A stretch of DNA of 64,000 bases from Haliotis cracherodii (lineage: Eukaryota), in NCBI RefSeq assembly GCF_022045235.1, contig NW_027266319.1:37634001-37698000 (forward strand), written 5' to 3'. The notes under the pieces were generated by a model that did not search any database, was not told where the DNA came from, and was given only the letters and a program-made list of their open reading frames with translations. Position numbers and translations under genes: made by a program. Below, in pieces: positions 1 to 22,900 of the stretch (position 1 is its first letter; the number at the start of each line of letters is the position of its first letter).

Positions 1-1180
1 CTTGGTCAGTAACTTCCGACAAGTATGGGTATCATGTGTAGCTAAGACAGAAAAGTATCACACTGACTTTTTATATACATTTCAGTACCAGTGTGATGTG
101 TTAATGTCGCTTTTCAATTTTTTCGGTAACCTTTCATCAATTCAGTTTGCAGTGACGGCTGGTTTGGTACCGACTGTGATAAACAGTGTCGGTGTCTGAA
201 CAACACAGAAGTCTGTGACAAGAACACAGGACAGTGTCTTGGTGGCTGTGCTCCTGGGTACACCGGCATTGGATGTCAGACAAGTGAGAACCTTTCAATG
301 TTTCTGTGAAAACAATGACCATTTTTATGGTAATGTTTCCATATGTTGAATGAAGATAATTTGAATTGCTTGCACATGTGCACACTTGTGCGGGTGTACG
401 TTGTTTGTGTAAAACGTGTTAAATCGATATGATGATATTATACTATACGGATACAAGCTGGCCCAGATAATGAAATTACTTTGTGTGAGGTGCAAATATT
501 CGGTAAGTACTGGATATTTGAACTGATAGTTATTAATACCCTATCATAACTAGTCACCGCTTATTACTTTCGTATGGGCCTAAATATTTGCGTTTAATCA
601 CACTGTGCATTGATAGTTGTACTAAAACATCGGAGAAACGTCTGTATGTGACGGTGATAGACATTCAGCTGTCTTGGTCAGTAACTTCCGACAAGTATGG
701 GTACCATGTGTAGGTAAGACAGAAAAGTATCAAACTAACTTTTTATATACATTTCAGTACTACTGTGTTGTATTAATGTCGCTTTTCATTTTTTTCGGTA
801 ACCTTTCATCAATTCAGTTTGCAGTGACGGCTGGTTTGGTACCGACTGTGATAAACAGTGTCGGTGTCTGAACAACACAGAAGTCTGTGACAAGAACACA
901 GGACAGTGTCTGGGTGGATGTGCTTCTGGGTACACCGGCATTGGATGTCAGACAAGTGAGAACCTTTCAATGTTTCTGTGAAAACAATGACCATGTTTAT
1001 GGTAATGTTTCCATATGTTGAATGAAGATAATTTGAATTGCTTGCACATGTGCACACTTGTGCGGGTGTACGTTGTTTGTGTAAAACGTGTTAAATCGAT
1101 ATGATGATATTATACTATACGGATACAAGCTGGCCCAGATAATGAATTTACTTTGTGTGAGGTGCAAATATTCGGCAAGT
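1..1180 (+). repeat. 672-bp tandem duplication carrying one EGF exon plus the 3' tail of an F-type lectin exon
   Basis: 1-505 recurs at 673-1177. Relics TIRIQAGPDNE(I/F)TLCEVQIFG at 442-502 (donor gtaagt) and 1114-1174 (donor gcaagt) match the end of gene B lectin exon 2 (VTIRVPDASDIYLTLCEVQIFG). Confidence 0.9.
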
Positions 1181-4100
1181 TGTAGTTATTTCAACTGACA
1201 GATATTAATATCCTTAAAATTTTACACACTGGTGTTGCTGGTAATGATTTCAAATTGATGTCGTTAATTCAGTTTTTACAGTTATGGCCCTTGCTCCATG
1301 ATTGTAAACCTAGTGCATACTACGTGAAATGGGTACAAGTTTTCTCAGAAACTACTGAATTTACCCAGTAGATACTTGTCAAGTTTGAAAATTGGTCCTG
1401 TCAATGAATTGTTTACAGATTGACGGCCTTAGGTCCGTGTCATTTGTGCAATGGGGACAAGTTTTCCCAGAAACAACTGAAGCTAGCTTATCTAAGAGAT
1501 CCTTATCAAGACAATTATTGTTTCCAGAGAAATCGCCTTTTGTGTGTATTAATTTCACATTGAACAATTTTTTCTGACAAAAAGCGGCCCACGTGCCTAT
1601 CTCTTCTGTAGGCTTCGTGGGGCTCTTTTTATAGTTTATATTCACTACGTATACTATATGAACAAACTTCAAATTTGCCTCATAGCGGGGGTCAGTGATA
1701 ACTCTGTTTTCTTGTTTTATCTGGGGACGAGTCGGTATTGTACCACATGGCAAATTGCTGAATTATAGTGACACAGAGGTTAAAGTATGTTCCACTTAAT
1801 TGTGCGTCTTAAGAAATGTATATACTACCGACAAAAAGTAAGGGAACTGATAAAGTGAAGGTGTAATGACGATAAATGTTTGTAAATTGTGTCCACCATT
1901 TTGGACGATACATGTTCGACACCTTGATAGCATACTGTTGTTAACCTTGCGTATGTTACCTTTGGTATTGAAAACCATTCTTCCTAAAGTGCTACCCCAA
2001 GCTAGACCATGATGGCGGGTACAAGGTCTCTGGTGTACGTTCTCCGCCCGAGAACGTCTCACAGATGGTCTATTAACCACGACCGGGACAATCGGCGACG
2101 ACCTGGGCACGATGTGCTCTCGCATTGTCATCTTGCAGTTCAAAAGTTCTGCCGATAATTCCAACGAAAGGAACAACGACGGGACGCATAATTTCGTTCA
2201 CAAATCGTTCGCCAGTCAAACGACCATTCACAATAACCCCATCAGTTCGCCTGTAATGTGTGATTCCGGCCCACACCGCGACACTACCGCCCCCTTACCG
2301 ATCATGGTCAAGAATTGTTGGCCTGGCATGCCGCTCGCCGCTTCGTCGCGAACAACGTTTACTGCCATCTGTAAATCGGAGGAAAAACTTTGATTCTTCT
2401 ATAAACATGGTGTAACACCACTGGGTCACAGCCATTCCCTAGTGTTGTGTAGCCCACCCCACCCTTTGACGCCTGTGCTAAGCTGTTAGGGTCACACCCT
2501 TCACATGGCGCCTTGCATTCAGGCGGGCTGCATAGTAGATGTTGAAATTCGCCTTCCTGTTATTGTAAGGAATTTTCTATAGATAACAGGAACATATCTG
2601 AATCTATTACGTAGTGCAGTTAATGTAATGAGAAGATCGTGTCTTGGTGTCGTGTGTTTAGTCCTGCCACTCCCACTCCACCCGTTTGACGGTTTTGTCC
2701 CCAACTCGAGACAGTACACATTTTTTTTTAAAAACAACGTTTGGTTAATATCTTACAATTTATGCTTTTATTTCTATCAGGAAGAGAAAAACACTGACAT
2801 TATCAGATATATCTGTCTATTTCTATAGTATGTAAATTAAAAAAGAGAAAAACTCAATTGTAAATCTGATATAAAATGACCATCATGATATTGCATGTAT
2901 TTTGGGCCAGAAGCCTTTTACTGAATAACAAGACTAGGTCTGTAAAGACTCCAAGGCCTAATTCAAATACACTGGCGAATGTCAGCATGGCTGTATATGT
3001 AACTTTATGGAGCCTCAAGATGAAACGATGATGAATATGAATACATAGTAAGACAAAAAATTATCAACCTTGCAAATACGTCTTAGAACGTAAAATTAAA
3101 AAAAATCTGAATAAACTTTTGGCAGCTTAATACTAATTGAGGGGGCACTGGTGGCCCAGTCGTCTGAGGTGCCGCGATGCGCTTTGCAGAGTTGCGTCCC
3201 TTGGTCACGCCAGAAACCTATGATTGTGGGTTCGAACCCCGGTTCGCCCTGATTATGTTTTCTAGGTTTGTCAGCACCATATAGCCGTGTTCATGGGTTT
3301 CATCGAAGTGTTAAACGTCTGAAACCAGCATCACTTTGGGCTTTCCTCCCACTTTAAGCTGACACGCAGCGATATAACTGGAATACTGTTAAAGGCGGCA
3401 TAAAACCCAATTCACTCACTAATGCTAGTTGCAAGACGTTCACAGTTGGATTACATCTCAATAACTAGCATTTTGAAGTTATAATTTCACAAACATTTAT
3501 ATCTGTTTCTTTAGCCGTCACAGAGGAAGTATCAAACTGGGGACTTCCTGTAGCAATAACCCTGGGCACGTTGCTGATATTCACGGTGATCGCGGCAACT
3601 ATCTACATCAAACGGTAGGAATAGCTGACTCTGTCATAAAAAATCACGTTTTCGAAAGGGAAAAAAAGGATTTTAATTACTTATCCTTTGATTAACAAAC
3701 TGTTGTGTATCAAACTATTATGTTCATAAAAATAGTATTACTTACTAACCACTTATTATTTTCCTGCACCATGAAAAACCTCTTCAAGAGGTCATACATT
3801 GCGAATGAACCCTAAAATACACAGCCTTCCTTTAAAAGAAGGAAAACTTTATGTTTTTAAATAGTGTCAAGGATTCTGCCGAACGGCTAGCATTTCCTCG
3901 ATCAAGACTGTTTGTCCTCACTAATTTGTACCTCTGTGTACTGAATCGTTTATATATGGTGAAATTTATATTTCGTCACTATCACAGTCATTTCAACAAA
4001 ATTAAATTAACTAAAATGCTGTGTTAATTATATCAACCAGATAGTTTGAAAATTAATTTTGTACACAGAGGTACAATTAGTGAGGACAAACTGTCTTGAT

Positions 4101-4982
4101 CGAGGAAATGCTTGTTCTACGAATAACCGTTCTTACACTGCTAATGAGTGTGGTAGCGTCTTTGTCAACACCCATGTTTTGTATACTAGGTTACTTTACC
4201 GGTGTGCATATTGGCGTTGTATTTTAACTATCTTCTTGTGGTATTATTAGCTTTTACTTATATGTGCAAGAGAAAGCGATCAACATCGAGAAAATGTTTA
4301 TGTGTGGGCTCAGCTTTCACACTACAATTACAAAATGTGCAAACTTACAGTACTACAGTCACACATGTCATAGATGTCAGATGCCATCCGACCCGTGAAG
4401 ATCCGGGGTTAAATAGGTCTTCAGCAACCCATGCTTGCCGTAAAAGGCGACTATGCTTGTCGTAAGAGGCGACTAACGGGATCGAGTGGTCAGGCTCGCT
4501 GACTTGGTTGATGCATGTCATAGTATCCCAATTGCATGGATCGACGCTTATGATGTCAATCACTGGATTGTCTGGTCCAGACTCGATTATTTTCAGACCG
4601 CCGTCATATAGCTACAATATTGCTGAATGCGGCGTTAAACAACAAACAAACATTAGCCATCCAACATGTGATAGTGGTTAAGTACGTTTCGAATCGTTAC
4701 CCTTCACGATATATCACACGTCAGTCGCCTCAGTCTCTTATAGTTTAACTGATCTTAAAGTTTACATGTTTTAGAGCATAGGCGAGTTATTTTACATTAC
4801 GTTTATGTTCAATTTACTAAGTTACTTTGCATGTCAGATTGATGAAGCAACTGGATGACTTGAAAACCATGATGTCTGAGGAACACTATGTGGGACTTGA
4901 TGAGAGGACAACTGACCAAGCAACATGCAATACCTACGAAAAATGTGAAAATGTTTCACCTTACCACATTTCCGTTAAATAG
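146..4982 (+). CDS. Gene A (5' end outside window): EGF-repeat, single-pass membrane receptor with tyrosine-motif tail; exons 146-283, 818-955, 3515-3614, 4838-4982
   Basis: Canonical AG/GT exons with compatible phases. Two 138-nt EGF exons (CSDGWFGTDCDKQCRCLNNTEVCDKNTGQCLGGCAPGYTGIGCQT), a TM exon (VTEEVSNWGLPVAITLGTLLIFTVIAATIYIKR) and a last exon (LMKQLDDLKTMMSEEHYVGLDERTTDQATCNTYEKCENVSPYHISVK*). Exon structure parallels genes B and C. Confidence 0.8.
2030..2700 (-). mobile_element. Decayed Tc1-family transposase fragment in gene A intron
   Basis: Fragments GSGRTKHTTPRHD..LRNRF, MWAGI, FELQDDNARAHRA; multiple stops and frameshifts. Confidence 0.8.
3141..3420 (+). mobile_element. tRNA-derived SINE family B
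   Basis: A box (TGGCCCAGTCG) and B box (GGTTCGAACCC), tail ...GGCATAAAACCCAATTCACTCACT. Other copies at 11550 (-), 12406 and 35030. Confidence 0.85.
3862..4140. mobile_element. Palindromic MITE-like element
   Basis: ~50-bp inverted repeats at 3890-3941 and 4061-4111 (GCATTTCCTCGATCAAGAC...GTACCTCTGTGTAC). Confidence 0.6.
4391..4650 (+). mobile_element. SINE family A (core GCTTGTCGTAAGAGGCGACTAA, (CAAA)n tail)
   Basis: Dispersed repeat. Further full or partial copies near 9290/10090, 15337, 15988, 22380, 23390, 25010, 46950, 51740 (-) and 58950 (-). Confidence 0.85.
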
Positions 4983-5169
4983 TTCAGCGTGTAAATTGAT
5001 GGTTGTATCATCTGTTATGGAAGAGGGGATGACACGCTGCAGATATGTACATCTAACATCTTGAATCAATTTAATCAAAACGATTTCTGTGTTAATTATC
5101 CCATTAAACGGTGTTTGCAAAATGCGTGTAGAAACATAGCTTGTATTTTACAGTGATAGGGATGAATAG

Positions 5170-6897
5170 GTATAAATATGATTAACCACAGGATGTGCAC
5201 TGCACGGTATAAATATGATTAACCACAGGATGTGCACTGCACGGTATAAATATGATTAACCACAGGATGTGCACTGCACGGTGTAAATATGATTAACCAC
5301 AGGATGTGTCCTGCACGGTATAAATATGATTAACCACAGGATGTGCACTGCACGGTATAAATATGATTAACCACAGGATGTGCACTGCACGGTATAAATA
5401 TGATTAACCACAGGATGTGCACTGCGCGGTATAAATATGATTAACCACAGGATGTGCACTGCACGGTAGAAATATGATTAACCACAGGATGTGCACTGCA
5501 ACATATACATCTGATTAACCACAGGATGTGCACTGCACGGTATGAATATGATTAACCACAGGATGTGCACTGCACGGTAGAAATATGATTAACCACAGGA
5601 TGTGCACTGCCCGGTATGAATATGATTAACCACAGGATGTGCACTGCACGGTATAAATATGATTAACCACAGGATGTGCACTGCACGGTAGAAATATGAT
5701 TAACCACAGGATGTGCACTGCGCGGTATAAATATGATTAACCACAGGATGTGCACTGCACGGTAGAAATATGATTAACCACAGGATGTGTACTGCACAGT
5801 AGAAATATGATTAACCACAGGATGAGCACTGCAACATATACATCTGATTAACCACAGGATGTGCACTGCACGGTGTAAATATGATTAACCACAGGATGTG
5901 CATCGCAACATATATACATATGATTAACCACAGGACGTGCACTGCACGGTGTAAATATGATTAACCACAGGATGTGCACTGCACGGTGTAAATATGATTA
6001 ACCACAGGATGTGCACCGCAACATATATACATATGATTAACCACATGATGTGCACTGCACGGTGTAAATATGATTAACCACAGGATGTGCACTGCACGGA
6101 TAAATATGATTAACCACAGGATGTGCACTGCACGGTGTAAATATGATTAACCACAGGATGTTCACGCAACGTATATACATATGATTAACCACAGGATGTG
6201 CACTGCACGGTGTAAATATGATTAACCACAGGATGTGCACCGCAACATATATACATATGATTAACCACATGGTGTGCACTGCACGGTGTAAATATGATTA
6301 ACCACAGGATGTGCACCGCAACATATTGATAAAATTAACCACAGCATGTGCACTGTGTGGTGTGAATATGATTAACCACAGGATGTGCACCCCAACATAT
6401 AAATATGATTAACCACAGGATGTGCACTGCGCGGTATAAATATGATTAACCACAGGACGTGCACCGCAACATATAGATATGATTAACCACAGGATGTGCA
6501 CTGCAACATATACATATGATTAACCACAGGATGTGCACTGCACGGTGTGAATATGATTAACCACAGGATGTGCACTGCCACATATAAATATGATTAACCA
6601 CAGGATGTGCACCGCAACCTATGAATATGATTAACAACAGGATGTGCACCGCAACATAAAAATATGATTAACCACAGGATGTGCACTGTACGGTGTAAAT
6701 ATGATTAACCACAGAATGTGCACTGTACGGTGTAAATATGATTAACCACAGGATGTGCACTGTACGGTGTAAATATGATTAACCACAGGATGTGCACCGC
6801 AACATATTGATAAAATTAACCACAGGATGTGCACTGCGCGGTATAAATATGATTAACCACAGGATGTGCACCGCAAAATATAAATATGATTAACCAT
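5170..6897. repeat. 37-bp minisatellite, about 46 copies
   Basis: Unit GTATAAATATGATTAACCACAGGATGTGCACTGCACG with interspersed variant units; begins ~190 bp after the gene A stop. Confidence 0.97.
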
Positions 6898-8155
6898 GTA
6901 TGCATATTTCACCGGTATAAGCACACCTACATGTTTAATGTAACAATTAGTACATTGAACAGGATTCTCACACTACTTTTATGTTCAGTTCAGTTTCACT
7001 CTACACGTGAAAGGATTTCTTTCTCGACCTGTTTCTTGTTATAAAGATCAGTGAACACGATCAGAAATATAGATTATATACTAAACGAGTCCCAGTTCGA
7101 TACCAAGTATTCCAAAACGTGTGTTCCAAAGTGAGTTATAATAAGAACGGCATCTAACAGAAACTAGTGTAGTAATTTATTTATTAATCACTCACATATC
7201 ATTTTGCACATTATACTGGCTATGTGGTTGCATCAGGAGAGAGTTTATCTGTTGAGACGTTGGTTGAAATTATCGTTAGGCTTTATCATCCATTTCATCT
7301 GTCCCAAAGATTCAGGACAGTGGGCTGCATTGGTTGACGTGAGCATACCGTAACGACTACCCGAGGGGCGCTACGTTCATGTGCATCTCAGTGTTCAAGG
7401 TCGGAAGGAGACGCGGCGATGAATGTTGTAATGATCTTTCGTCATTATGTTTTGTATCGTTGTTATGTCCCGAACCTTTATATTACTTGCACTACTCCAA
7501 CATATAAGTGACGAGTCTCTCTATTTCAAACGTACGTGTTCGAGAGTTTTGCGATAGATCCACAGGCAACTACAAAAACCCAACGGTACTGTTTTTAGTG
7601 GGAATTAGTGTGTGTATCAATCTCTGGTGTTTTGTGACAATTAGTAGTACCCCTTGGGAGCAGATGTTTCCCTTTGACGTCGAGTACAGCTATACTTCAC
7701 TGTTTAAAAAAATCAAAGTACTCGCATATCTGATCTTTTTAATACCGTTTCTTACCACTTAATGTTTTTTTTTAAAGAAATTAAACTGTATAGACATATA
7801 TTTTAACTTTTGAATGTCAGGTGTTACTGTTTACTGCGATACTGGACTCAAGTTTCAGTGATTTTAAATTTACTTTCTGTGTTCGTTTATCCTTATAGAC
7901 AAATGTAATCTTTCTCTCGCCGCGAATAGCTGCTGGTGCGGCTAAAAGCAATATTAACTCACTCACTCACTCACTCATTGAAACACGTGTTCTCAATGTT
8001 GTTTACTTCACAGCTATGTATTGTTGAACATGCCCGTATATGAAACTCTTTTTTAAGTATTTCAGATTTATGAGACCTAAAATTTACCTTCCAGCTGTTT
8101 GCGCCCCATAAGCGTGGTATTTTCATACAATTGTAAGTAAAGGTTGGTGAATTTA

Positions 8156-8310
8156 GTAGCTAGACTTTATATTTCAGAAGTTCACAGTAATTAGACTTTA
8201 TATTTCAGAAGTTCACAGTAGCTAGACTTTATATTTCAGAAGTTCACAGTAGCTAGACTATATATTTCAGAAGTTCACAGTAGCTAGACTATATATTTCA
8301 GAAGTTCACA
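8156..8310. repeat. 31-bp tandem repeat, 5 copies
   Basis: Unit AGTAGCTAGACTTTATATTTCAGAAGTTCAC. Confidence 0.95.
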
Positions 8311-9363
8311 AATTGCACACCTTCATCAAACGCAAAATAATTATACATACTTGCATGCAAACTGGAAACTTTGTGTCTGATTCATCCGTTCATTTCAAAC
8401 CATCATCAAGACAAACGCCATTGAAAAGAGTATCCCGTGACCCTGGACTTGACAGTGGCGGATTCAGTAAATAACATGGCTGTCTACGAAATCTGTTGTT
8501 TGCTTAATCTATATCAACTTCCCGTGTCACCATGTGAGTGGTACATTTATGTTGCTAAAACCCGGTGAGGAACACTACCCTCAGTACGTGTAACCTAAAA
8601 ACACATAATATCCAGCCAATGTGTTTGAAAACATGATATGTGAAGTCGAGATTCATACGATACATCATTTTTAATATTTCAGACACGACGTATCACTGTA
8701 CATCCACTCATTCAAGTTCCCTTAATGCCCTGTTGCAATTTTAGCAGTCAACACATCTTAGTGGACTTGAGTAAGCATAGTTGTAATTGCGTTTGTTTCT
8801 GGTGTGCAGGTCACTGTGCCATGAAATGCAAATGCAAGTACATTTGTTCACATTTTTGGGGTGCCAATTCCGACTTTCAATGTCAGATCGAACCTTTATT
8901 AGTATGAAGGCTACTGGCCCATATACAGATATAGAAAACATCAGCTTTTCCACATGAATAGTATATCTTAATTTGATGCTTTTTTGACAAGAAAGGTCTT
9001 GAATTATCAATCAGATGAGTATCTGAGGAATATTGCACACGCAGATAATCATGTATTATGAGTTTATAAGAATCACGTATTAAGGTAAAGGGGTATTCAC
9101 ATTTCATCCCTTGGTTACAAAGAGGACATGCAGGTAAAACATCATCTTGTATCTCTGTGGGAACAGTCTATTGGGAACAGTCTACTGTTTACCTAACAAA
9201 TAGGGTCTTCTTTCTCGAGAGTCCAACATCACGATTACGGATCGTTTGTGCCGTCATTCTTCTCCAACAAGGAATAGTAAACTCTTCCGCTACCCATGCT
9301 TAAGGTGACTATGCTTGTCGTAAGTTGCGACTAACGGGATCGAGTGGTCAGGATCGCTGACTT

Positions 9364-10085
9364 CTTTTTTTTTTCTTCTTTTTTTTATTTTCCTTCTTTA
9401 TTCATCTCAGCAGGTACAGCATTTATATACATATGTCACGTCAATACAATTGTGGTACATGGATTTCAAAAAGTGTAAATCTTTCCATACAATAAATTCT
9501 TGCCTATAAAGTCCACGTACTGTATCAGTGTATCACTGTTCAGTTTTTAACAAAGTGTGGAAGGAAGACCAAAAACTAAAAAAGTTTGCATAGTTACAAT
9601 TTGTGAATGACATTACCTTTGTAGCATTGTAATAACATTTTATCTCATGCTGTATGTGTTCAAAATTTGGCCTTAATCCGTTCCTACATTGTCTGTATAT
9701 TACTTGTTTTGTTATTAAAAGTACAATATTCAATGGGTTGTTGTGTTTGCCTTGAAATCCAAACAAAACATGTTCTCTGTTTAAATCAATGGTCCTTTCC
9801 ACAACAGATTTTAACCAGATATACAGTCTCTCCCAACTCTTTCTTACGTGTTCACAATCATACAACATATGGATTATAGTTTCAGGTTGATTTGTACAGA
9901 AAGTACACATAGGAGAATCAGCATATCCAATTTTATATAAATATTTGTTAGTTATAAGAATGTAGTTAATAATCTTAATCTGAAACCATCTAATATCCTC
10001 ACTTTGAGTGCAGCTTTTTGCCATCAATATATGTTCTTTCCGATTTGTTTCACTAAATGTCTTATTTAGTATACTTTCCCATATT
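9364..10085 (-). mobile_element. 5'-truncated L1/Tx1-like LINE (ORF2 C-terminal zinc-binding region) inserted into a family A SINE
   Basis: ORF 9533-10027 has CTFC..QPETIIH..YDC (zf-RVT-like). Poly(A) tail seen as a T-run from 9364. Imperfect 14-bp target duplication AGGATCGCTGACTT (9350-9363) / AGGCTTGCTGACTT (10086-10099). SINE halves lie on both sides. Confidence 0.85.
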
Positions 10086-10254
10086 AGGCTTGCTGACTTG
10101 GTTGATGATGCATGTCATCGTATCCCAATTGCGTGGATCGATGCTCATGATGTCAATGACTGGATTGTCTGGTCCATACTCGATTATTTACAGATCGCCG
10201 TCATATAGCAGGAATATTGCTGAGTGCGGCGTTAAACTAAAGACAAACAAACAC

Positions 10255-10975
10255 ATATTACATAATCAAAGAACATTGATATTTTAAACACAATAATACA
10301 CTACTGCAAATCGTTTCTCTCCCATCGGAATTACAGGGTAGTATAGATCCCCAGCATCACATGCTTTTCGTATGAACCGATTAAATTGGGAATCGATTGG
10401 TTACAATGTCTGCCCGGACTGATCCTGTCTCACCGTACCCCACCAGCGTGAAAAGTGTTGCTTACGCTATCAACCATTGTTTTTTCTGACTCACTTGTTG
10501 ATACACAACCGTGATATACGATTGACTAATGTCAGAGAACTACCTTGCTATCTACTATGCTCCCCCAACCTGAATAATTCAACCATGTCTCACGTTTGAG
10601 CAATATATTTGATTTCTTAAATTTCTAGTTTTTGAAAATGTATTTTAGATTTCATAATTCAGTTTCACAATGTCATTCTCTGTTGATAAGTAATTACGCT
10701 TACAAATAATATCTCATATGTATGACCTAAAAGCTTATTGAAGCATTAGTCCTTCACAGAATATCAGGAGGACCTATGATTGTATACCTGAGGCTAATAG
10801 TTGTGTGCTGATTATTATACAGAAACCATCGCCTGCAGAAACTGTGCGCCGTTCATTGATATCGCTCAAACCCAAAGTATAAGACGTTGTCGTCAATTTC
10901 ATCTTGTTTGAGGTCAATATATTCGCACAAGGCAAGGTAAATAATATTTTTGGAATAAGGATTCATAAGGAATAA
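10255..10975. repeat. Inverted duplicate of 49415-50100
   Basis: ~700 bp alignable by eye to the reverse complement of 49415-50100. Confidence 0.9.
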
Positions 10976-11549
10976 GGCAAGAATTCTAAATAGTCAGCTG
11001 TTTAATAACTTGTAAATAAATTTACACCGACACGGAATAAGATATGAACCTGCGTGATTAGCCGATACAGCTTGCAGGTTGAAGCAGTAAATATCAATCG
11101 ATTGAAGCGCCCCAAAAAAGTCTTGTAAATACACAGAAAGCATGCTGCCGTGGTGTATTTGTTATGAATTTTTGTTTCAGGAAAGTCTTTGGGTGAGTGA
11201 GTGAGTTAATATTTAACGTCACATCGGCAATATTTCAGCCATATCATGACCTGGGGAATGTCTATGGTACTTATGGGTACAATCGATAATAACATCAAAT
11301 GTTTGGCCTGCAAGTTTTTATTGGTTGTTTTCATTTAAAACTTTGTAAGGTTTACTGTAATAATGAGAACAGACAGCTCCTACTTGCCGATTCATCACAA
11401 GCGAATGCCGCTTGACCTACACGGAGTTCCGGCCTGAACGGGCCACTGCGCTCATTTACTGTGAAAAGACATCGTTTATCAAATTCAGTATGTAAGAGGG
11501 GTAATCGCATAATGGTTAAAAATCAAGGTGTAACATGCAACACAGGAAA

Positions 11550-11765
11550 TGAGTGAGTGAGTTGGGTTTAACGCGGCTTTTAACAGTATTCCAGTTGTAT
11601 CACGTCGTGTCAACTTAATGTGGGAGGAAAGCCCCAAGTGATGCAGGTCTCAGACCTTTACCACTTCGGTGAAACCCACGAGCACGGGTATGGTGCGAAC
11701 CGAGATTCGAACCAACAATCATAGATTACTGGTGTGCCCAAGGGACGCAACTCTGCACAGCGAAA
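11550..11765 (-). mobile_element. SINE family B, internally deleted
   Basis: Reverse complement of the family B body and (CACT)n tail. Confidence 0.8.
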
Positions 11766-12405
11766 ACAGGAAATATATTGGAACCAAAATTATTCATATT
11801 GTTTTAAACATGTATGTTTTGATTGAACATTTCAAAAACATTATTTTTTTGTAAATGTTATTTGGCAAACAAAGAGTTGGCCGCCAATTGATGATGCCTC
11901 GCATCAAAGTGTACTTGTGTAATATGTCAATGTTATGAATGCAATGCCCTCTTTCCAATGAAACGTAAACACAGTTAGAAGAAACTCTGTTTTCATTCAT
12001 TGATGTGCTGTACCACTCATGGCTATCAAAATTATTATTCGAATTCCCAACACCTCAACCGACTACACTAAACAACAGCCGCCAGATGAAATATTTATAA
12101 GTTTGTGTGTTACACAAAGCAACATGACAGATGTTTTCGATCAGACCCCTTTTCCGCTAGTAGTGGATTATATAAAATGTGGATTTTTAAAGAACGTATC
12201 ATCAGTATTGCTTTAATAGTATGTTTCTATTATTATAAGCAAACCCGCACTTTATATACCAGCATTATTCTGGTACCTGCTTTAAAAGATCTCGCTTCAC
12301 ACATAAAAAACAACACCTTCAGGCGCCTATATTGATGTAGTATACACAATCGTCTTGTTTGGTACTCGAACAGCAGAATTTTTTAATTGTACACTACTGT
12401 TAGAA

Positions 12406-12685
12406 GGGGCACGGGTGGCCCAGTCGTCTTAAACGCCGCGATTCGCGGTGCAGAGTTGCGTCCCTTGGGCACGCCAGAAACCTATGAGTGTGGGTTTGAA
12501 TCCCAGTTCGCCCCGAAAATGTTTCTAGGTTTGACAGCACCATACCCGTGCTCGTGGGTTTCACCGATGTGATAAACGTCTGAGACCTGCATCACTTCGG
12601 GCTTTTCTCCCACATTAAGCTGACCCGCCGCGATATAACTGGAATACTGTTAAAAGCGGCGTTAAACCCAACTCACTCACTCACT
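12406..12685 (+). mobile_element. SINE family B
   Basis: Full-length match to the 3141 and 35030 copies. Confidence 0.85.
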
Positions 12686-13073
12686 AATATTAGAAAAGAG
12701 TTCAGTGTTTGGGTGCAAAGGCGATACCGGTGCGACTTCCTCTCGGAGAATATGACAGTCTATTTTCGATCTCTTTGTGGGCGATGTTTTTTTTCTGAAT
12801 TATAACAAACACTTTCAAATTATGCATACCATCGCATAAGGTCGGTTTTGTTATAAATTGATAAATGTTACACTCTGATTAGAAATATATAAATGCCTCT
12901 TCTCTAGTGTCCTTGCATTTGTCTGATATAGAGGAACTAACTCGGTTTCGCGGGTACCATTGCATCGTACCTCAGTCGTTTCTAAACGTAGATTATAGCA
13001 GTTGATATTCATACCCGTGTAGAAAACGTCACGATGGGAATATTAAGGTACTACTGTCTGCAATGAATGCACC

Positions 13074-13235
13074 GGACGATGGGGTAGCCTAGTGGTTAAA
13101 GCGTTCGCCCGTCACGCCGAAGACCTGGGTTGGATTTCCCACATGGGTACAACGTGTGAAGCCCATTTCTGGTATTCCCCGCTGTGATATTACTAGAATA
13201 TTGCTAAAAGCGGCATAAAACCATACTCACTCACT
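13074..13235 (+). mobile_element. Short tRNA-Asp-like SINE family C
   Basis: Head GGTAGCCTAGTGGTTAAAGCGTTCGCCCGTCACGCCGAAGACC...GGTTGGATTTCCC, (CACT)n tail. Second copy at 48448. Confidence 0.8.
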
Positions 13236-13374
13236 ATACATGTACTCATTGCAACTTAGGTTTTTAGTCAAAAGTGTTTCTTTTTTAATAATCACGAAGC
13301 TATTGTATTTTTTTATTTACACCAACACACCAGCATACCAGCACACGTTCATTACAAGAAATATGTGGTGAGGT

Positions 13375-13706
13375 TAGGGCAAATGGGGTTTAACGTCGCG
13401 TCCAAAATGATTGCACTTATTTAGCGACGTGCATGTACGTGTGTATGTGTTTGTGTGACTGATGCCGATTTATAGTGCTTGCTCACTGAGATACCATGCC
13501 GCAGTTTAACATGAATACCTCACTCAGACACAGTATACTGACTCCGAGCCGACCGGTTCTTGTTTAAGCCCCTTAATGCCTAGCGCCAGACAGGGTAACA
13601 ACAAGTATCATCTTTTAACGTCTTTTGGTATGACGCGGTCGGGAATCGAACCCCGGACCTTCCGTTCTCCGGGCGGACGCTCTACCCCTAGATCACGGAG
13701 GCGGTC
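13375..13706 (-). mobile_element. tRNA-derived SINE family D (resembles molluscan RUDI-type SINEs)
   Basis: tRNA-like head followed by CATACCAAAAGACGTTAAAAGATGATAC...GGCGCTAGGCATTAAGGGG. Second copy at 46580 (+). Family name recalled, not verified by search. Confidence 0.7.
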
Positions 13707-14127
13707 ACAAGAAATATGACATATATCATATAGTTTCCCCTTCACATATGAGATTTACATAAACACTTAATTTGGATAATTAAAAGACGCGTATATCCTC
13801 AAAGGAACAGTTGCCTCCTGCTGTTTCCGTGTCATCATGCCCCGATGACGTAGATCGATGCTCATGCTATCAGTCACTCGTTGGTCTGGTCCATTTACAG
13901 GCCGTCATGCAATACATTCGAAAAATATTTGCCAAAGAAACAGCTTTCAACACCATTACATCACGTACGTATTCGTCATAATGATACCTATTCAAAACCC
14001 ACACATCAATAAATTAGTTTATGGTATTGTTATAAGGTTAAAAATGCATCTCAGAAACTAATGATAATACATAGAACCATTATAGCTGCAATGAGGAGTC
14101 GCATTAGATATAGTTCGTGACAGAACT

Positions 14128-14990
14128 TGTAGTTGGAAAGGAATCAATAGGGAAAAGACATTTCACATTTATCACAAGTGTATTCTGGACATTTCACATT
14201 TATCATTGGATTGGTCTCTGACTATCGTCCATGAGTTAATGAAACAAATGGGGAATTACAAGGTATAAGCCATTGGGAGCTTCGGAGCGAGTCACAGAAT
14301 CAATAGAGAGATGAGCAATATGGCACGTAGGCTTTTGGTATTTTTCCGATGGCGACACACATGAGTTCATGGTCAGATCTAAACTTGAACGAATCAAATG
14401 GAGGTATTGAGACATGTGACAAGGCCAGGCCAGGCTCGAACACTATAAAATGATACCCTCAACATTAGGAGAGGAGAGCGCGGTTTGCAGTCGATCGAGT
14501 CGAATCCCGATCGTTCTAAGTTTCCACCAGATAGTAACGAGCCTGGCCAGTCTGATCCTGTTCTGTATTGATAGATGGGCTGAGAGTAAGTAAAACTATG
14601 TGAGTATAAACTGGTGTTGCGTTTCTTTATTATGTGAGTATGAATGCTGATAGAGACAACTTGGAGTAAGGGTCATTAGGCCAATCACTCCTTGACGGAG
14701 CCGAGCCGTGGTGGACAAGGCGAGGACAATGTCCTGGCTTAATTGACCACAAGGACCAGGAACGGCAATACATTTAGTAACTGTAGCAGGATCGCACTGG
14801 ACGCCCGAAAGCAGTTACGACAGTATATTATAGTTTGTCTCGTTGACATCGAAGGACACTCGCGGCAACCATCTGCACGTTTGGTAAATTTGTAGTCTTT
14901 GTGTATGTAATCATCATTATCATGGGTGAAATCCTTTACCACTACCTCGGCAGCATGTACTCATGGGTCCCACCTGGGGCCAGTGCTACA
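14128..14990 (+). mobile_element. Possible solo LTR
   Basis: Starts TGTAG, ends CTACA, internal TATAAAA near 14444. No matching target-site duplication seen. Confidence 0.3.
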
Positions 14991-15336
14991 GTGTTTTGTA
15001 ATTATCCTAGGATCCAGTCAAGTGTTTAGAAATTTGTTTTTGTTTTCAAATATTTTGAGAAAGATATTTAATTGAAAAGTTGTGTTGAAGAAGTATTTTA
15101 TACTTGGATTTTCTGAGGTTTGGCAAACAGGAAGTCTCGTCCATGCAAGCGTCCAAGGAACCAGTTTAGCGCAGCCCCGAGTAGATTTGTTTCTCAAATT
15201 CGGAAACTCAGTCTTTCACACTTAAGTTTATAAAAATGTTGCGTTCCTTTTTGTTCAGGTTTCAACATCAAAACTCAAGTGAGAAAGTGTGCATTTAACA
15301 CTAACACCACGGCAAGTGATACCTTTGTATTCAAGA

Positions 15337-15600
15337 CCCTTGAAGATCCGGGGTAGATTAGGTCTTCAGCAACCCTTGCTTGCCGTAAAAGGCGGCTATG
15401 CTTGTCGTGAGAGGCGACTCACGTGATCGGGTGGTCAGGCTCGCTGACTTGGTTGATGCATGTCATCGTATCCCAATTCCGTTTATCGATGCTCATGATG
15501 TCAGTCACTGGATTGTCCTGTCCTGACTTGATTAATTACAAACCGCCGTCATATAGCTGTAATATTGCTTAGTGCTGCATTTAACAACCATTAAAAAAAC
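15337..15600 (+). mobile_element. SINE family A
   Basis: Match to 4391-4650. Confidence 0.85.
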
Positions 15601-18600
15601 AACTATATAATCAAACTTTTGGCCCGTGTTTTGGAACTGGATACCTAAATAAGAAGAAGAGGAGCGATTACAATCAGGCAGTTTATTGTCAAAGGTGTTG
15701 TGTGTACAATATATAATACACGCGATAGAACGGCAATATATTGCATATAGAATGCTAATTATATATGCATACATGAAACATTGAAAAACAATGTGTATAA
15801 GTAATGTCAATGGTTGTAATACTTAAGGGAGAAAGCTGGAATGGTAGGGAATTTAGCTGTAGGTAGAGCTATGCACACTTTCATAGCTAGAGAGAGTATT
15901 ACATCATCATGAGACGGACATTATGATCCATGAGTGAAGATAAGTGAAACCATAATAAATGTGTGTGGATTATTATGTCTGAAGTAACCCGTGAAGATCC
16001 AGGGTAGAATAGGTTTTCAGCAGCCCATGCTTGGCCTACAAAGCAAGTATTCTTGTCGTGAGTGGGATCTGGAAGTCATGCTCGCTGACTTGGTCGATGC
16101 ATGTCACAAACAAACAAACGTCTGAAGTAAGACGCGTTATTCACTAAAAATAGATAGATATATACACGATAAACGGTAATAACAATAACCTCCAACAAAG
16201 TATAATAAAACATGACATAATTGTATTTGGTGCATAACAATAGCAGCTGTACGATATCAAAGATATTGGCGTTCTTCTTATGATCATTTGTATGGAGTTG
16301 ATTCATCACGACGTTAGATTTGATTTCGAAGTTTATCAATGCTTTGTCATCGTGTGTATCAAAATATGATACGTGAAGTATCTGAGTAACAGTTTCTGTC
16401 ACGGCCGAACATTAGATATACGGATTAACTGTCTGTCTTGATCGTTCAATATACCTCCCGATTAACGTTACTTTCATGATATTTGTCTGAAACATATTGT
16501 ATTCTGAAATTGTGTATATTCGGACATTGATAATGGATGGTCATATTCAAATACTTTGGATTAACTGGGTTTTTTGGTGCTAAACACACTTTATAAAACA
16601 TACAAAGTATAGTAAACATCTTTTCATTGAAAAAATACAAGTCATGGTAAACACATTTCTAAAACACACACGTTATTGTGTATGATCTTTCATATATACA
16701 TAGGTAATAATGAAGTCTTCTTTATATTGTTAAAGCTAATGAGATGGGTTTGATAGATAGGTCTATCTTACAATAACCTACTTTGTAGCTGTCAGTGTTC
16801 AGTCTGACGCGTAAAAGCCTACTGTTAGATATGTTTGTAGATATACTGTAGATAATGAAAACTTTATGAATATTTTTATCCCATAAATATTTAGTTCATA
16901 ATTACATATGAAAAACTCTAATATTTATAGAAAATATTGGAACAATATTGAGTGTATTCACATTGATGTACTTTACAAAATGAAGAACATGCTGTGTTAA
17001 TGAAAAACATGCATTTGAGGTCATAGAAGATAGATCAAAAGTTGAAGTTAAGTTTGTGAAAATAGCAAATTATATCATTAAATCGAACTTCTATGAGACA
17101 ATAGTAAATCAGTCTACAGTCTTGGTGTTATCGTTAACTGATAAGTTTTTATCGTTCAAAGGCAGGGCTACTCGCATCAACTTCATGACGCATTATTTTC
17201 ATGATTTACAGTATTCATGAAGACTATTTCATGTCGAACCAACCGCTGGTGGAAAAGAGGGAACTATGAGCAGACTTGCTGAGTATTTATGATATTCATG
17301 CCAGCTTTATAACAGTCACATAATAATTACAGCTTTAAGTGAGTTGTAGCTATCTTGGAAGACTATTGGTTAGTCTCTGAAAATATTTTTAAAAACTTTT
17401 GATAGAAGCAAATAAATACATTTTAATTGAAAAGGAGCCCCAGTGAGATGGGAGATTCAGACCTTGGGAAAGCCTAGCCCTGCTTCATTGAGGACTATAC
17501 CATTACAGTAACTGCTGGCCGAAGGGAAAATAATATGATTTAGGGACTATGACACAGACTGGTTGTGAGCATATACTTTCAGAACCCGTCAACGTTATTG
17601 TCCTGTCTTCGCTCTGGAGAACCGTTCCAACAAATGCAGTTGCATTAAAGTTGTTTTTGCATCAGTCTCGACTTGACCCGTTTGCGAAAACACACATTTG
17701 TTTTCTGGGCTAAAAGTTCGGGTACTGATATTGTTGATATATATCATGATTATGACCAATGATTATGATAATGTCATTCGAAAAAAAGTAAAGACGGAAA
17801 TATTTCCGTTGCTACTTTGCATGAGAAATGTTGTTGTTTTATATTTTTCATATTTCTGTTTTATAAATACTTCTCTGTAATGCCATTAAAGCAACTTAAA
17901 CATTAAACACAGCCAGTATCACAAAGCGCAAAAACTGTCGATCCGGGTTGCAATGCATTGCCACTTACCAATACATATTATTTATAACCTAGGAACAGAA
18001 ACTGTCGCAGTTGAACACATGCAAATCCTCAGTGAACTCTCCCTAGATTTAACGTTGTTCATAATGTTAGATACAGGCAAACTATGAGCAGCTCATATAT
18101 TGCTGATTGCAGTGTTTACAGAGGGCACTATACACGTTATGTGAGAGAATGACTTTAGAACGGTAACAGGAGTTAATATATCCAAGATGACATAAACAGA
18201 ATAATGTTTGGTATATCCAGTATCAAATATGTAAGGAAACATTTCATAAGTAAATAATTAAATTCAACAGTTCTCCTTTAAGTAATTTTTCCTGACTTAA
18301 AAGTGAAGGTAAGAACACAATCTGTAAAATTCTGGAAAACTACCATATCACTTTATAGCATACTATTAACATTGGCTTCCCAGCTTGGATCGGTTTGGGT
18401 GGCAGCATAGACATCCATAGAATAGACACTTTCATTTCGGAATGTGACAAGTAATATTTTAACAATAACAGAACATAGTCGACTACATTATAACATCACG
18501 CAGATCACTGTATAAGGTTTTAGATCAGTGATGTTTGCTAATGAGAAAGGGAATACAGAGCCAATGTGCTCAGGTCACATATAATAAGAGAGCGGGAGAA

Positions 18601-19744
18601 GCTAAAAATTATTAATAAACATTGTTTTCTCACTTGCAGTCAATATATGAAACCACTAACCGCCTATGTGCTCTAGTAATAGATACCAATTGATCACCGT
18701 CTACAGAGATACGACAGCCAGCATGTTATAATTATTCAGTTTCGGTTTAAATATTAGTTTGCGTGTTTGTTGGGTATATTTGACTGCGAATGTAATATCC
18801 ATTTTCTATACTTTAACCGTTCCAGAGCTTTGCTCTTTCGAAATTATTTTGACTGAAATTCCACCTAATTTCCGTTACTTTAATCAGTGAGAAATGAGCG
18901 TGACAGCTTCCAGCAGTGTTGAGTGACACACACCAGGGACACATAATCATAATAAACAGGTAATGTCCAAGTGAGGGAGGGGTCGAATACAGTCTGAACA
19001 CCTGCACTGTGAAATGTGTTTAGATCTAAACATGTTTAGGAATGTGTTTAACTCCTAAACGGAATACACATTTGGTGTGTTCTAGCTTATCACACTGATG
19101 GTCTAAACACATGAAATGAGCTGCAGGCTCACAGCCTAAACACCACCAAAACACATCACTCTATAATCTAAACAGGTTTATAATTTAAACACGTTAACGA
19201 CAATGTCATTGGGCATTAAGCCAAGTGTAGTTAGGATGAATGAATGAACAAACAACGGGAATATATTGTACAAGTGAAAGTGAAAGTAGGGAATTGCATC
19301 GGCCATCACTTTTGTCACTGATGGGTCATGTTTTTAGGTACAGTCGTGCATGCTCTTTCTACGAAGATTTCAAAAAGCTTTAAAAGTTGTTTGATCAGGG
19401 TTACAAAATGCCAAGGCCTCAGCAAAGCTTTCAAAAGGTTTTATGGATGACACGTTGACGATATTTCCAAGTTTGACTCATTGGTAACGTAAAGGATTGT
19501 CCGGTGCAATTCCCTATGTTGAATGGTACACATTCAGGTGAACAATTGACTTGACTTGACATGTGTTTGTGAACGGTTTTTCTCGATGGGGCAGGATACG
19601 CTCACCTATTTGCGAACACCTGGTATCATAATTATCGGATAGTGATTCACACATGATGGACACATGCTTATGATATCATCGGAATCTTACAATGGACTCA
19701 ATAATTATGGAAATGGTTTTGACGCTTTTATCGATTTCATCAGA

Positions 19745-19904
19745 TTATATTCGGCCCCGGTGGACTTCCCCTGCGTTGGCATAAGGACTGGTATTGTCAA
19801 CGTGTTCGTATATGTTTTCCACAACTGGATCCCTGGTGTTCTCATCAAGAGATATGTAGTTATCTTCAGGCTTCTTTTGCAAGGCATCCAGTTGACGCTT
19901 CAGT
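19745..19904 (-). CDS. Gene B last exon, cytoplasmic tail
   Basis: LKRQLDALQKKPEDNYISLDENTRDPVVENIYEHVDNTSPYANAGEVHRGRI*; acceptor TTTCAG; homologous to 58009-58156. Confidence 0.85.
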
Positions 19905-22900
19905 CTGAAATGTACAGCAATAAGCTAGTAAGGCTAATCATTTCAAGATGATTAGGTACATGTATATCCCTTTACGAATATGAAATAGGCACCACTTGTT
20001 GACGGTACACACACGCTATTGTTTTCACTGAAATGCAATTGATCATGCGTTCATCACCCTCTTGCATACTACTGCCATCAATGTAAGGAGATCACGTAAG
20101 TCTCTGTGATTTGTATCCAATCCTAATAGTCCCTTGAATAAAATATGTTTAAATAAATCGATACAATTATCGCCAGCTGTACAATATACATTCGTATACA
20201 TGTATGTTTGTACCAACTGAAACATTGCTGGTATACTTGACACATATGTACATACCCCTATACGATTCGATTATGTGGATCAAACAACGAAAGTTCTGCG
20301 TGAAATATGAAATGTGCTTCATGTCATAATACTGCATTGTAATGGACATAGACTAATGATAATGAACGACGAATCATCGATGGTAATAATATGATAATGG
20401 TAATTATATGATATGGTGGTTATAATCCGTCAGTTGGAGTCTCTAATGCACAATTAGCAAAGAATCGGTTAATGTTGCTCAATATTATGAATCCTCTTTT
20501 CATGTTCATGATACTTTATCTTTAACACATTACACGATCCCTACCTTCTGATGTAAAAGATGGACGTCAACAGAGCGATGGCAGCCAAGACGAGAAGTGT
20601 ACCGAGTGTTGCTACAACTGGCGCTTCACGGATTAAACATCCTGGTGTTGCCGCAAACACTGTACAACATTGTTTTTAAAACAAATAAGTGGTTCATATT
20701 CCTTATTCTTCTGAAAGTATGGGTTCGAATCCGGGACGGAACTGAATAAAGTACTAGCTATAGAGTACAATCGCAAATATAACATTTGTTCATTTGAAAA
20801 CTTTCTAAAAGGCATTGTGTATTCATTTCTGTCGACCATGGGACAAATATTCATACTGGTTATGAGTCTCCAAATGGCGATTTGAGGGAGTCTATCCAAA
20901 TCCTCTTGCAACAATGAAAGCAGGGAAAACACTACTGCACGATAAGCAGAATCAATCAGATTGACAGAAATAATGGTCCCTCCATTTGATATGTTCAAAT
21001 CTGATTGTTAGCAAATCCATCTCCGCCACATGCCTCGGACAGCTCTCTGGGCAGGAAAACGTAGAAGACACCCGCATCTGTCATATATGCCATGGAAGTT
21101 GAAACACCGTGCTTTCCGCCAATAACAACCACGATACACTGTCGTCAATGTAAGAATAGCGAGCGCGACGGAAGCGCAAACACCTGCTGTAATTTTTGTC
21201 AGCGGAGTTTATCCTTCGCCTGAGCGATCTTGTATCACCATTTTATAATGCAAATATAATCAGATGTGGAAAATATATGTGGAAACAGTGTCTGTTATAC
21301 AAACGTAACTATATTATATAATACTTTTTTCATACAACATGAACATGAATGTATTGCATAATGAACAATAATCCTGTATATACTCACAACTCAAGCACGT
21401 ATCAGTGGTCCACCTTTGTGCACATCCTCTCGGACATGTCCCTGTGGTCTTGACACATACATCTCCATTTAGGCAGTTTCCGCATTGGGAGGAGCAGTTG
21501 ATACCGTAGGAGCCGTCTTGACAAGCTGTCCATGTACATAGTTACTTTAATATTTTATAACTATTCTGATAAGAAGCACGGCCTAATAGTCCATACTCAC
21601 TCACTCACTCACTCACTCACTCACTCATAAACTACTGAATGTAGTTGAAACAATTGGGGGCAAACTTAGCCCCATAACCTCCGTCTGGGGATCTTGTGGA
21701 CATAACATGAAGCTGTAGACAGTGACACGAACACCCGTCAGTGAACACAAACTCTCAGTGAGTGTAAGCTTCAGTGATGGTGTGAGTGATGAGGGTTAAA
21801 AATATGTACAGTTTGTGTGCATATTGTTTCAGTATATTGTCCATTACGCTTGACATGGAAAAATGTCTACCATTTTATGCGCTCAGCGTCCTATGTACAT
21901 GTAGGTGGATTTAATTATTGCTGAAAGTTTCTACTATTTGGCAATACAAGTGTTCGTGGTATTTATATTGGAGATAAGCGCTAAAACGCTCGTTTCAGAA
22001 CTAAAATAAGAATTATGCAATCAACAGTTATAATACATGAAAATGCCAAACACAGTAAGTGTAGCTTCGTTCTTAATTATGCATGGAATAACAGTTCAGC
22101 TACCTTAGAACAGTCTCAAAAGGGGCACAGGTCGTAGAAAGGGTAAGAACTTGTACTGAAGTCCAAGATTAATTACTTTGATTCTTGAAATAATGTGTAA
22201 CAAAATGCGTATCTGTTTCCATGAAATAACCCTCCATACAGATACACAGCTTCATCGCAACATGTTGTTTTTATTGCACCTCGACTTAACTATGCCATCT
22301 GAGATGGCAGATTGAGTTAGCAATGATATTTGTACCGGAATGTATTGCATAATGCACACTAACCCTGTACATACCAACAACTCTCATGATGCCAATCACT
22401 GGATTGTCCTGTCCAATTGCTGGAATATTGCTGAGTGCGGCGTTAAACAACAAACAAACAAACATACTCATAACTCAAGCACGTATCAGTTGTCCACCCA
22501 GATTCACATCCTCTTGGACATGTCCCTGTGGTCTTGACACAAACATCTCCATTTAGGCAGTTTCCGCACTGGAAGGAGCAGTTGATACCACAGGAGCCGT
22601 CTTGACAAGCTGTCCGTGTACATTGTTTCTTTCATTAGTACTTATTAATTGTATTAAGAAGAGGTTCGGCATGAGGCCATATTCGCTCACTCACTTACCA
22701 GTAGATAGTTGAAATGGTTGGAAAAAAGTACCTACCCTGTGAACACAGATCTGGTAACCATCCAAACAGGCATCCTCGAGGACATTTCCCTGTTACCTTG
22801 TCACAGACAGCAGTGTCCAGACAATGGCCACAATGAGACGCACAATTGGCACCATAACGTCCGTCTGGGCATGCTGTAGACAGTAACATGAACACCTAGC

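What the first reader, a model, noticed from the sequence alone, without database searches (positions are those of the whole stretch)
4838..19904. Paralog tails keep tyrosine spacing but change the SH2-specifying residues
Seen: all three tails have Y1xxL-X12-Y2xxx-X5-Y3. A is YVGL/YEKC/YHIS, B is YISL/YEHV/YANA and C is YISL/YEEI/YAQA; acidic residues precede Y1 in all. Known: YxN is the Grb2 SH2 motif, and an acidic stretch plus a single YxxL is the hemITAM pattern. Inference: A works as a hemITAM or attenuated receptor, B adds a Grb2 site and C a Src site, so outputs are diversified as in paired receptor families.
Basis: partly seen in the sequence, partly recalled or inferred. Interest (0 to 1): 0.72.

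Follow-up and report, generated by a model that had tools for sequence, protein, structure and literature searches.

The report
Abalone ITAM-versus-phosphatase paired lectin receptors
These abalone genes encode cell-surface lectin-type receptors whose short inner tails carry a conserved immune 'on'-type (ITAM) motif, and they sit interleaved with sister genes that have almost the same outer part but end in a tyrosine phosphatase, so the two kinds likely work as on/off receptor pairs.

Summary
The three tails are real, but three copies mislead. They belong to an abalone family of F-type-lectin + EGF single-pass receptors with 16 tail exons in this genome. The family norm is E-x-x-YxxL-X12-YxxI-X5-YxN: a long-spacer ITAM plus YxN, conserved in four Haliotis species. 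So B gained nothing. C lost YxN. A lost the second ITAM half and YxN, with changes concentrated at Y+1..+3 (modest support for 'attenuated A').

The larger finding lies outside the window. Five of 19 genes in this cluster carry the same ectodomain on an intact tandem tyrosine phosphatase. Ectodomain trees mix the two types (AU test rejects a phosphatase clade), and one ITAM/phosphatase pair shares 185 of 186 N-terminal residues. A second cluster interleaves 9 canonical-ITAM with 10 phosphatase genes.

Best reading: paired activating/inhibitory receptors whose inhibitory member is itself a phosphatase. Signalling is untested, and neutral array shuffling is not excluded. The same two architectures mark snail schistosome-resistance loci, described there without ITAMs. 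This scan noted a similar pair before in another genome (e1-9507145).

The parts
146..955 (+). Gene A: second and third of three near-identical EGF-like exons (146-283, 818-955). Signal, Cys-module and F-type lectin exons lie 0.8-4.5 kb upstream of the window.
   Evidence: public model P0021 matches these exons
2941..3015 (+). Gene A: decayed EGF exon with an in-frame stop; skipping it keeps the frame
3515..3614 (+). Gene A transmembrane exon (clade-2 type)
4838..4982 (+). Gene A tail exon: YVGL-X12-YEKC-X5-YHIS. Second ITAM half and YxN lost; stops 6 codons earlier than three of its clade-2 kin.
19745..19904 (-). Gene B tail exon: YISL-X12-YEHV-X5-YANA, the family-norm ITAM-like motif plus YxN
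20545..20659 (-). Gene B transmembrane exon (clade-1 type)
21385..27436 (-). Gene B: nine EGF-like exons, all phase 1, eight from recent internal duplications (low end approximate)
30139..31159 (-). Gene B F-type lectin (fucolectin-like) domain in two exons (31159-30908, 30327-30139)
   Evidence: paralog P0003 matches the F-lectin FBP32 (3cqo) at E 2e-21 and PF22633 just below cut-off
31499..31618 (-). Gene B N-terminal Cys-rich module exon
31955..32006 (-). Gene B predicted signal-peptide exon
   Evidence: most hydrophobic ATG..GT candidate upstream
58009..58156 (-). Gene C tail exon: YISL-X12-YEEI-X5-YAQA. ITAM intact, YxN lost.
58759..58873 (-). Gene C transmembrane exon
59496..63989 (-). 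Gene C: three intact EGF-like exons plus a decayed one at 59981-59925. Its remaining 5' exons lie up to 6 kb beyond the window.

Best explanation
The tails are a conserved long-spacer ITAM plus YxN on F-type-lectin/EGF receptors, and sister genes with the same ectodomain carry a tandem tyrosine phosphatase instead, so the two likely act as activating and inhibitory paired receptors. Shown: gene structures, motif conservation, intact phosphatase exons, interleaving in two clusters, and ectodomains more alike across the two types than within them. Inferred: glycan binding clusters the receptors; a Src-family kinase phosphorylates Y1/Y2; a Syk/Shark-type tandem-SH2 kinase binds them and Grb2 binds Y3. 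A phosphatase paralog engaged by the same ligand would be drawn into the cluster and erase the signal. Ligands that bind only the ITAM copies would trigger, and ligands that bind both would be tolerated. A is likely a weakened or decaying ITAM copy, and C a mild variant.
For: Tail anchors: Y1, L+3, D+4 and Y2 invariant in 26 of 26 distinct tails; Y2+3 is I/L/V in 24 of 26; Y3+2 is N in 17 of 21. This fits D/ExxYxxL/I-x(6-12)-YxxL/I as quoted in PMC6994640, and Draper's ITAM has an 11-residue spacer. In 948 kb scanned, 14 of 19 genes end in a tail and 5 in D1+D2 phosphatase exons. Those exons cover 633-667 of 668 residues of a public RPTP; the only stops fall in flanking intron sequence. The HC-SAGVGRTG loop is present in 5 of 5 and WPD in 4 of 5; dN/dS is 0.19-0.25. 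Tree of N-terminal exons: 4 type changes, at least 3 forced by starred branches; AU test rejects a phosphatase clade, p 1e-100. The ITAM gene at 36.977 Mb and the phosphatase gene at 37.066 Mb differ at 1 of 186 residues over Cys module plus lectin. Second cluster on C6: 9 tails YSTL-X8-YDVI-X5-YAN interleaved with 10 phosphatase exons; tree has 6 changes and two starred ITAM/phosphatase sister pairs. Both types share contigs in H. rubra. The first lectin exon evolves fastest or nearly so (dN/dS 0.50-1.02). ITAM-Syk signalling is reported in oyster.
Against: No binding, phosphorylation or co-expression data. The near-identical block is about 20 kb and spans the 3' half of the upstream neighbour too, as plain unequal crossing-over would give. 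The phosphatase member of the closest pair has WSD for WPD. D1 has KNRF in place of the usual KNRY (consensus recalled). A 12-residue spacer is at the edge of the definition and fails the stricter x(6-9) used in PMC9546547. Tail exons are only moderately constrained overall (dN/dS about 0.6). No Syk/Shark gene was identified: the 3 SH2 exons checked against PDB, of 58 matches, were Csk- and PLC-gamma-like. C6 gene types were assigned by exon order, and only 16 of 19 genes entered that tree. In heterobranch snails only 5 of 24 short tails matched an ITAM pattern (0.48 expected by shuffling). Some RPTPs activate Src kinases (recalled), so the sign is uncertain.
Confidence: 0.55

Rival explanations
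1. Neutral array mechanics: ITAM-tail and phosphatase genes are neighbours by descent, unequal crossing-over shuffles 5' and 3' halves, and the two types do not act on each other.
For: The shared 20-kb block crosses a gene boundary. EGF exon number varies from 3 to 10 or more, with decayed exons. A is itself a chimera, with an ectodomain close to B/C and a clade-2 TM and tail. Shuffle controls show type labels are simply unclustered on both trees.
Against: Both types are kept intact in two separate clusters and side by side in other Haliotis species. Short-tail and phosphatase subgroups also co-occur in Biomphalaria. Phosphatase exons and ITAM anchors are under constraint.
Confidence: 0.2
2. 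The two types are functionally coupled but cooperate: the phosphatase primes Src-family kinases, or is switched off by ligand-driven dimerisation, so both arms favour activation.
For: Same genomic evidence as the best explanation. RPTP dimerisation control is discussed for the snail homologs. CD45/RPTP-alpha activation of Src is recalled.
Against: Draper triggering goes with exclusion of a transmembrane phosphatase. A ligand-matched phosphatase of similar ectodomain length would stay in the contact, which predicts inhibition (inference).
Confidence: 0.15
3. One reading: A, B and C were tuned to distinct SH2 partners (hemITAM, Grb2, Src).
For: Private changes are concentrated at Y+1..+3 in A and weakly in C, while all tyrosines are kept. 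C has YEEI, the optimal Src SH2 motif (recalled).
Against: B equals the norm. No family-wide excess variation at these sites. The whole A tail exon has dN/dS about 0.9-1.1 against its kin and a premature stop. The only public model of A ends in an intron before the TM exon.
Confidence: 0.1

Closest known systems
[quoted passage not shown]
   Same: Clustered single-pass galactose-binding/fucolectin + EGF receptors, most with a small cytosolic part and some with two phosphatase domains.
   Different: Those papers call the short tails 'without identifiable domain signatures' and contain no 'ITAM' in their main texts. Orthology to the abalone clusters was not tested; the Bulinus homolog has a different repeat layout.
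[quoted passage not shown]
   Same: Closely linked genes, near-identical ectodomains maintained by exchange, different cytoplasmic parts (definition in PMC13358205).
   Different: The putative inhibitory member carries its own tandem phosphatase instead of ITIMs, and the activating member carries the ITAM itself instead of using DAP12. Not IgSF or C-type lectin. Opposite signalling is not shown.
Draper / MEGF10 / Jedi-1 / CED-1 engulfment receptors
   Same: EGF-repeat single-pass receptor with a long-spacer ITAM (Draper YXXI-X11-YXXL); public names of homologs include 'draper-like' and 'MEGF10'.
   Different: F-type lectin head instead of EMI, a tail of about 50 residues, no NPxY, multi-copy clusters, phosphatase-bearing paralogs.
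Oyster CgIgR and Hydractinia Alr ITAM receptors
   Same: Invertebrate receptors with intrinsic ITAMs; CgIgR recruits CgSyk. Alr cluster holds ITAM and ITIM members.
   Different: Ig ectodomains; the counterweight is an ITIM, not a receptor phosphatase.

Membership tests
ITAM | D/E-x-x-YxxL/I-x(6-12)-YxxL/I in a cytoplasmic tail | tested here: met
   Strict L/I at Y2+3 in 14 of 16 genomic tails, V in B, C in A; spacer 12 here and 8 in the C6 cluster. Fails the stricter x(6-9) definition for this window's genes.
ITAM | Dual phosphorylation recruits Syk/ZAP-70/Shark | not testable with these tools
   Needs biochemistry; the search for the kinase gene was inconclusive.
hemITAM (gene A) | Single YxxL preceded by an acidic triad (DEDG type, recalled) | tested here: inconclusive
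   A has SEEHYVGL: one YxxL and two acids, the same upstream context as its full-ITAM kin; two more tyrosines remain.
Paired receptors | Closely linked genes with near-identical ectodomains and different cytoplasmic regions | tested here: met
Paired receptors | Ectodomain exchange between the two types | tested here: met
   AU test p 1e-100; C6 sister pairs. Whether selection drives the exchange is not shown.
Paired receptors | Inhibitory member signals through ITIMs | tested here: not met
   The partner has tandem phosphatase domains instead.
Paired receptors | Opposite signalling on a shared ligand in the same cells | not testable with these tools
   no functional or single-cell data
Receptor-type PTP (the partners) | TM + D1 with WPD loop and HCxxGxGRT + degenerate D2 | tested here: met
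   5 of 5 have the catalytic loop, 4 of 5 WPD, and D2 reads HCQ/DGA..SG; PF00102 on public homologs.
F-type lectin (fucolectin) | Sequence match to the F-lectin domain | tested here: met
   P0003 vs FBP32 E 2.3e-21; PF22633 over cut-off only for P0043 of 7 proteins.
F-type lectin (fucolectin) | Fucose-binding His..R-x-D-x4-R motif (recalled) | tested here: inconclusive
   His and first Arg kept in 19 of 19 cluster genes; the loop is one residue shorter than FBP32; A has His at the Asp site.
Draper/MEGF10/CED-1 | N-terminal EMI domain and NPxY motif | tested here: not met
   No EMI hit; no NPxY in any tail.

The most novel reading that the evidence does not exclude
Molluscs run a paired-receptor system of their own: arrays of fucolectin-EGF receptors in which one ligand-binding head is continually swapped between an ITAM tail and a built-in tandem phosphatase, giving self/non-self glycan discrimination without ITIMs. 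The snail schistosome-resistance loci SudRes1 and LG5R are the same system, so resistance haplotypes would differ in the ITAM-to-phosphatase balance for a parasite glycan.
Probability: 0.35. Interest if true: 0.85.

Novelty: new variant of a known kind. Interest (0 to 1): 0.62.

Why it matters
It would be a paired immune receptor design in which inhibition comes from a ligand-matched receptor phosphatase, not from ITIM-recruited SHP. It gives a testable signalling model for a receptor family already tied by GWAS to schistosome resistance in snails, whose short tails were left unexplained in print. It may also bear on disease resistance in farmed abalone.

Tried and rejected
Expression: no RNA holder was listed for gene B. 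Contigs of three guessed-RNA runs and one other run were laid on gene A: the bins holding its TM and tail exons had no cover in the three guessed-RNA runs and cover in the fourth, and repeats swamped the joint tables. This is no evidence either way. Splicing of B and C stays untested.

Idea that tail genes are truncated or alternatively spliced phosphatase genes: rejected. No phosphatase exons follow any tail gene in the 948 kb scanned.

Idea that B gained a Grb2 site: rejected. Family-wide positive selection at Y+1..+3: not supported.

Idea of systematically longer ectodomains on phosphatase members: EGF exon counts overlap.

Single exons gave no Pfam hit over cut-off. Search for Syk/Shark was inconclusive. 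Hits L017 (stop inside) and L033 (E 3.0, no family exons in 30 kb around it) were dropped as chance. P0013 was dropped from the entropy count because it lacks the anchor pattern.

Literature: 8 searches listed no paper describing ITAM/phosphatase pairing in this family. The recalled sea-urchin 'PTPRscav' had 0 occurrences in the 20 papers listed. Most subscription papers are not searched, and 17 of 27 supplements of PMC13712769 were not searched, so an ITAM remark there is not excluded. No structure or complex was predicted.

Full report
Observation. The motifs and spacings are as reported; C lies at 58.0-58.2 kb, outside the stated range. Each tail is the last exon of a gene built from a signal exon, a Cys-module exon, two F-type-lectin exons, 3-9 phase-1 EGF exons and a TM exon. 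The exons are open with AG/GT ends, apart from one decayed EGF exon each in A and C. The lectin call rests on a paralog's match to FBP32 (E 2e-21). Homologs are labelled Haliotis, so this is an abalone.

The tail in family context. Two own-genome searches gave 16 tail exons: 14 within C56 36.92-37.69 Mb, one on C1, one at C56 64.9 Mb. They form two clades; B and C are in clade 1, A in clade 2 (support under 95). Among them Y1+3 is L in 16 of 16, Y2+3 is I/V/L in 15 of 16, and Y3+2 is N in 12 of 15. Adding 17 proteins of other Haliotis species gave 26 distinct tails of 33 rows: Y1, L+3, D+4 and Y2 are invariant, and E-3 occurs in 24 of 26. This is the ITAM pattern D/ExxYxxL/I-x(6-12)-YxxL/I quoted in PMC6994640 (passages seen) at its longest spacing; Draper uses 11 (one passage of PMC13148388). 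A distant cluster on C6 has the same three-tyrosine layout with the canonical spacer of 8, YSTL-X8-YDVI-X5-YAN, which makes a chance resemblance unlikely.

Y+1..+3 columns are no more variable than spacer columns (1.38 vs 1.44 bits, p 0.73). B carries the normal motif set. A lost Y2+3 I and Y3+2 N, stops 6 codons early, and shows dN/dS about 0.9-1.1 against its kin, against 0.28 for B. Its private changes do cluster at motif codons (12 of 27 vs 17 of 99 nucleotides, permutation p 0.02), and C's do weakly (p 0.03); amino-acid counts are not significant and four genes were tested. So A may have been weakened by selection or may be decaying; the data cannot separate these. The public model of A ends in the intron before the TM exon. 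The labels YxN = Grb2, YEEI = Src and the hemITAM acidic triad are recalled, not tested.

What the cluster holds. In 948 kb around the window there are 19 genes with the same 5' exons. Five have no tail exon. They continue into a different TM exon and about 17 exons of a D1+D2 tyrosine phosphatase, covering 633-667 of 668 residues of a public RPTP, with the catalytic loop in 5 of 5 and WPD in 4 of 5. On a tree of the four N-terminal exons (20 genes) the phosphatase label changes 4 times, at least 3 forced by strong branches; holding the five together is rejected (p-AU 1e-100). The tail gene at 36.977 Mb and the phosphatase gene at 37.066 Mb share 13.8 kb at 99.1% and 185 of 186 residues over Cys module and lectin. 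Against over-reading, that block extends to about 20 kb and includes the upstream neighbours' 3' halves, the footprint of unequal crossing-over.

Replication. On C6 (19.97-20.68 Mb), 22 lectin exons, 9 ITAM tails and 10 phosphatase WPD exons (one with a stop) are interleaved on one strand. With type assigned by exon order and 16 of 19 genes usable, the tree needs 6 changes and has ITAM/phosphatase sisters at 100/100 and 96/93. A third short-tail/RPTP neighbour pair has consecutive accessions in two species. In heterobranch snails, 5 of 24 short tails match an ITAM pattern against 0.48 expected; that set includes near-duplicates and probably two mis-called TMs, and 19 tails do not match.

Mechanism. 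Shown: architecture, motif conservation, linkage and ectodomain exchange. Inferred from Draper, MEGF10 and oyster CgIgR (passages of PMC8092387 and PMC6994640): clustering, Src phosphorylation, Syk/Shark binding at Y1/Y2, Grb2 at Y3. Draper is triggered with exclusion of a transmembrane phosphatase (passages of 10.1101/198986). A phosphatase that binds the same ligand with a similar-length ectodomain would stay in the contact and quench the signal. The fast-evolving first lectin exon (dN/dS 0.50-1.02 vs 0.19-0.25 for phosphatase exons) fits a ligand arms race. None of the signalling steps was tested, and no Syk/Shark gene was pinned down.

Comparison and novelty. PMC12297450 (passages) and PMC13712769 (passages, section 20, 10 of 27 supplements) describe short-tail and phosphatase members of this architecture at snail resistance loci without mentioning ITAMs. 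The paired-receptor definition was read in passages of PMC13358205, and the ITAM/ITIM Alr cluster in passages of PMC9546547. Eight library searches listed no paper on ITAM/phosphatase pairing in this family (see Tried and rejected). I had stated my reading before seeing it, and it is not independent support. Verdict: observation confirmed, interpretation partly supported, new variant of a known kind, interest 0.62.

Noticed in passing
window 5169-6896: 37-bp tandem repeat, about 46 copies, starting about 190 bases after gene A's stop codon.
   Followed up: no
window 28607-29667 (-): Tc1/mariner-like transposase in two frames inside an intron of gene B; similar elements lie upstream of A and of other paralogs (family named from recalled motifs).
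   Followed up: no
window 1-1214: Three 672-bp near-identical units, each with one EGF exon of gene A: a recent internal triplication.
   Followed up: partly
P0038, P0041, P0022, P0032 (other Haliotis species): Family members whose short tails have no tyrosine, one type shared by H. rufescens and H. asinina; possible decoy receptors.
   Followed up: no
P0132 (H. rufescens): Family member with two ITAM-like units in a 95-residue tail.
   Followed up: no
G000 C34, C1, C8, C78, C56: 113 matches to one phosphatase WPD exon, many in tandem clusters: a large PTP expansion whose ectodomains and neighbours were not examined.
   Followed up: no
L167 and L169 (G000:C1:59.02 Mb): Two Csk-like SH2 exons 3.8 kb apart on one strand.
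   Followed up: partly
G000:C56:36907802-36910007: Fragment of a further phosphatase-type gene at the left edge of the cluster: EGF exons, one with a stop, and one phosphatase exon match.
   Followed up: no
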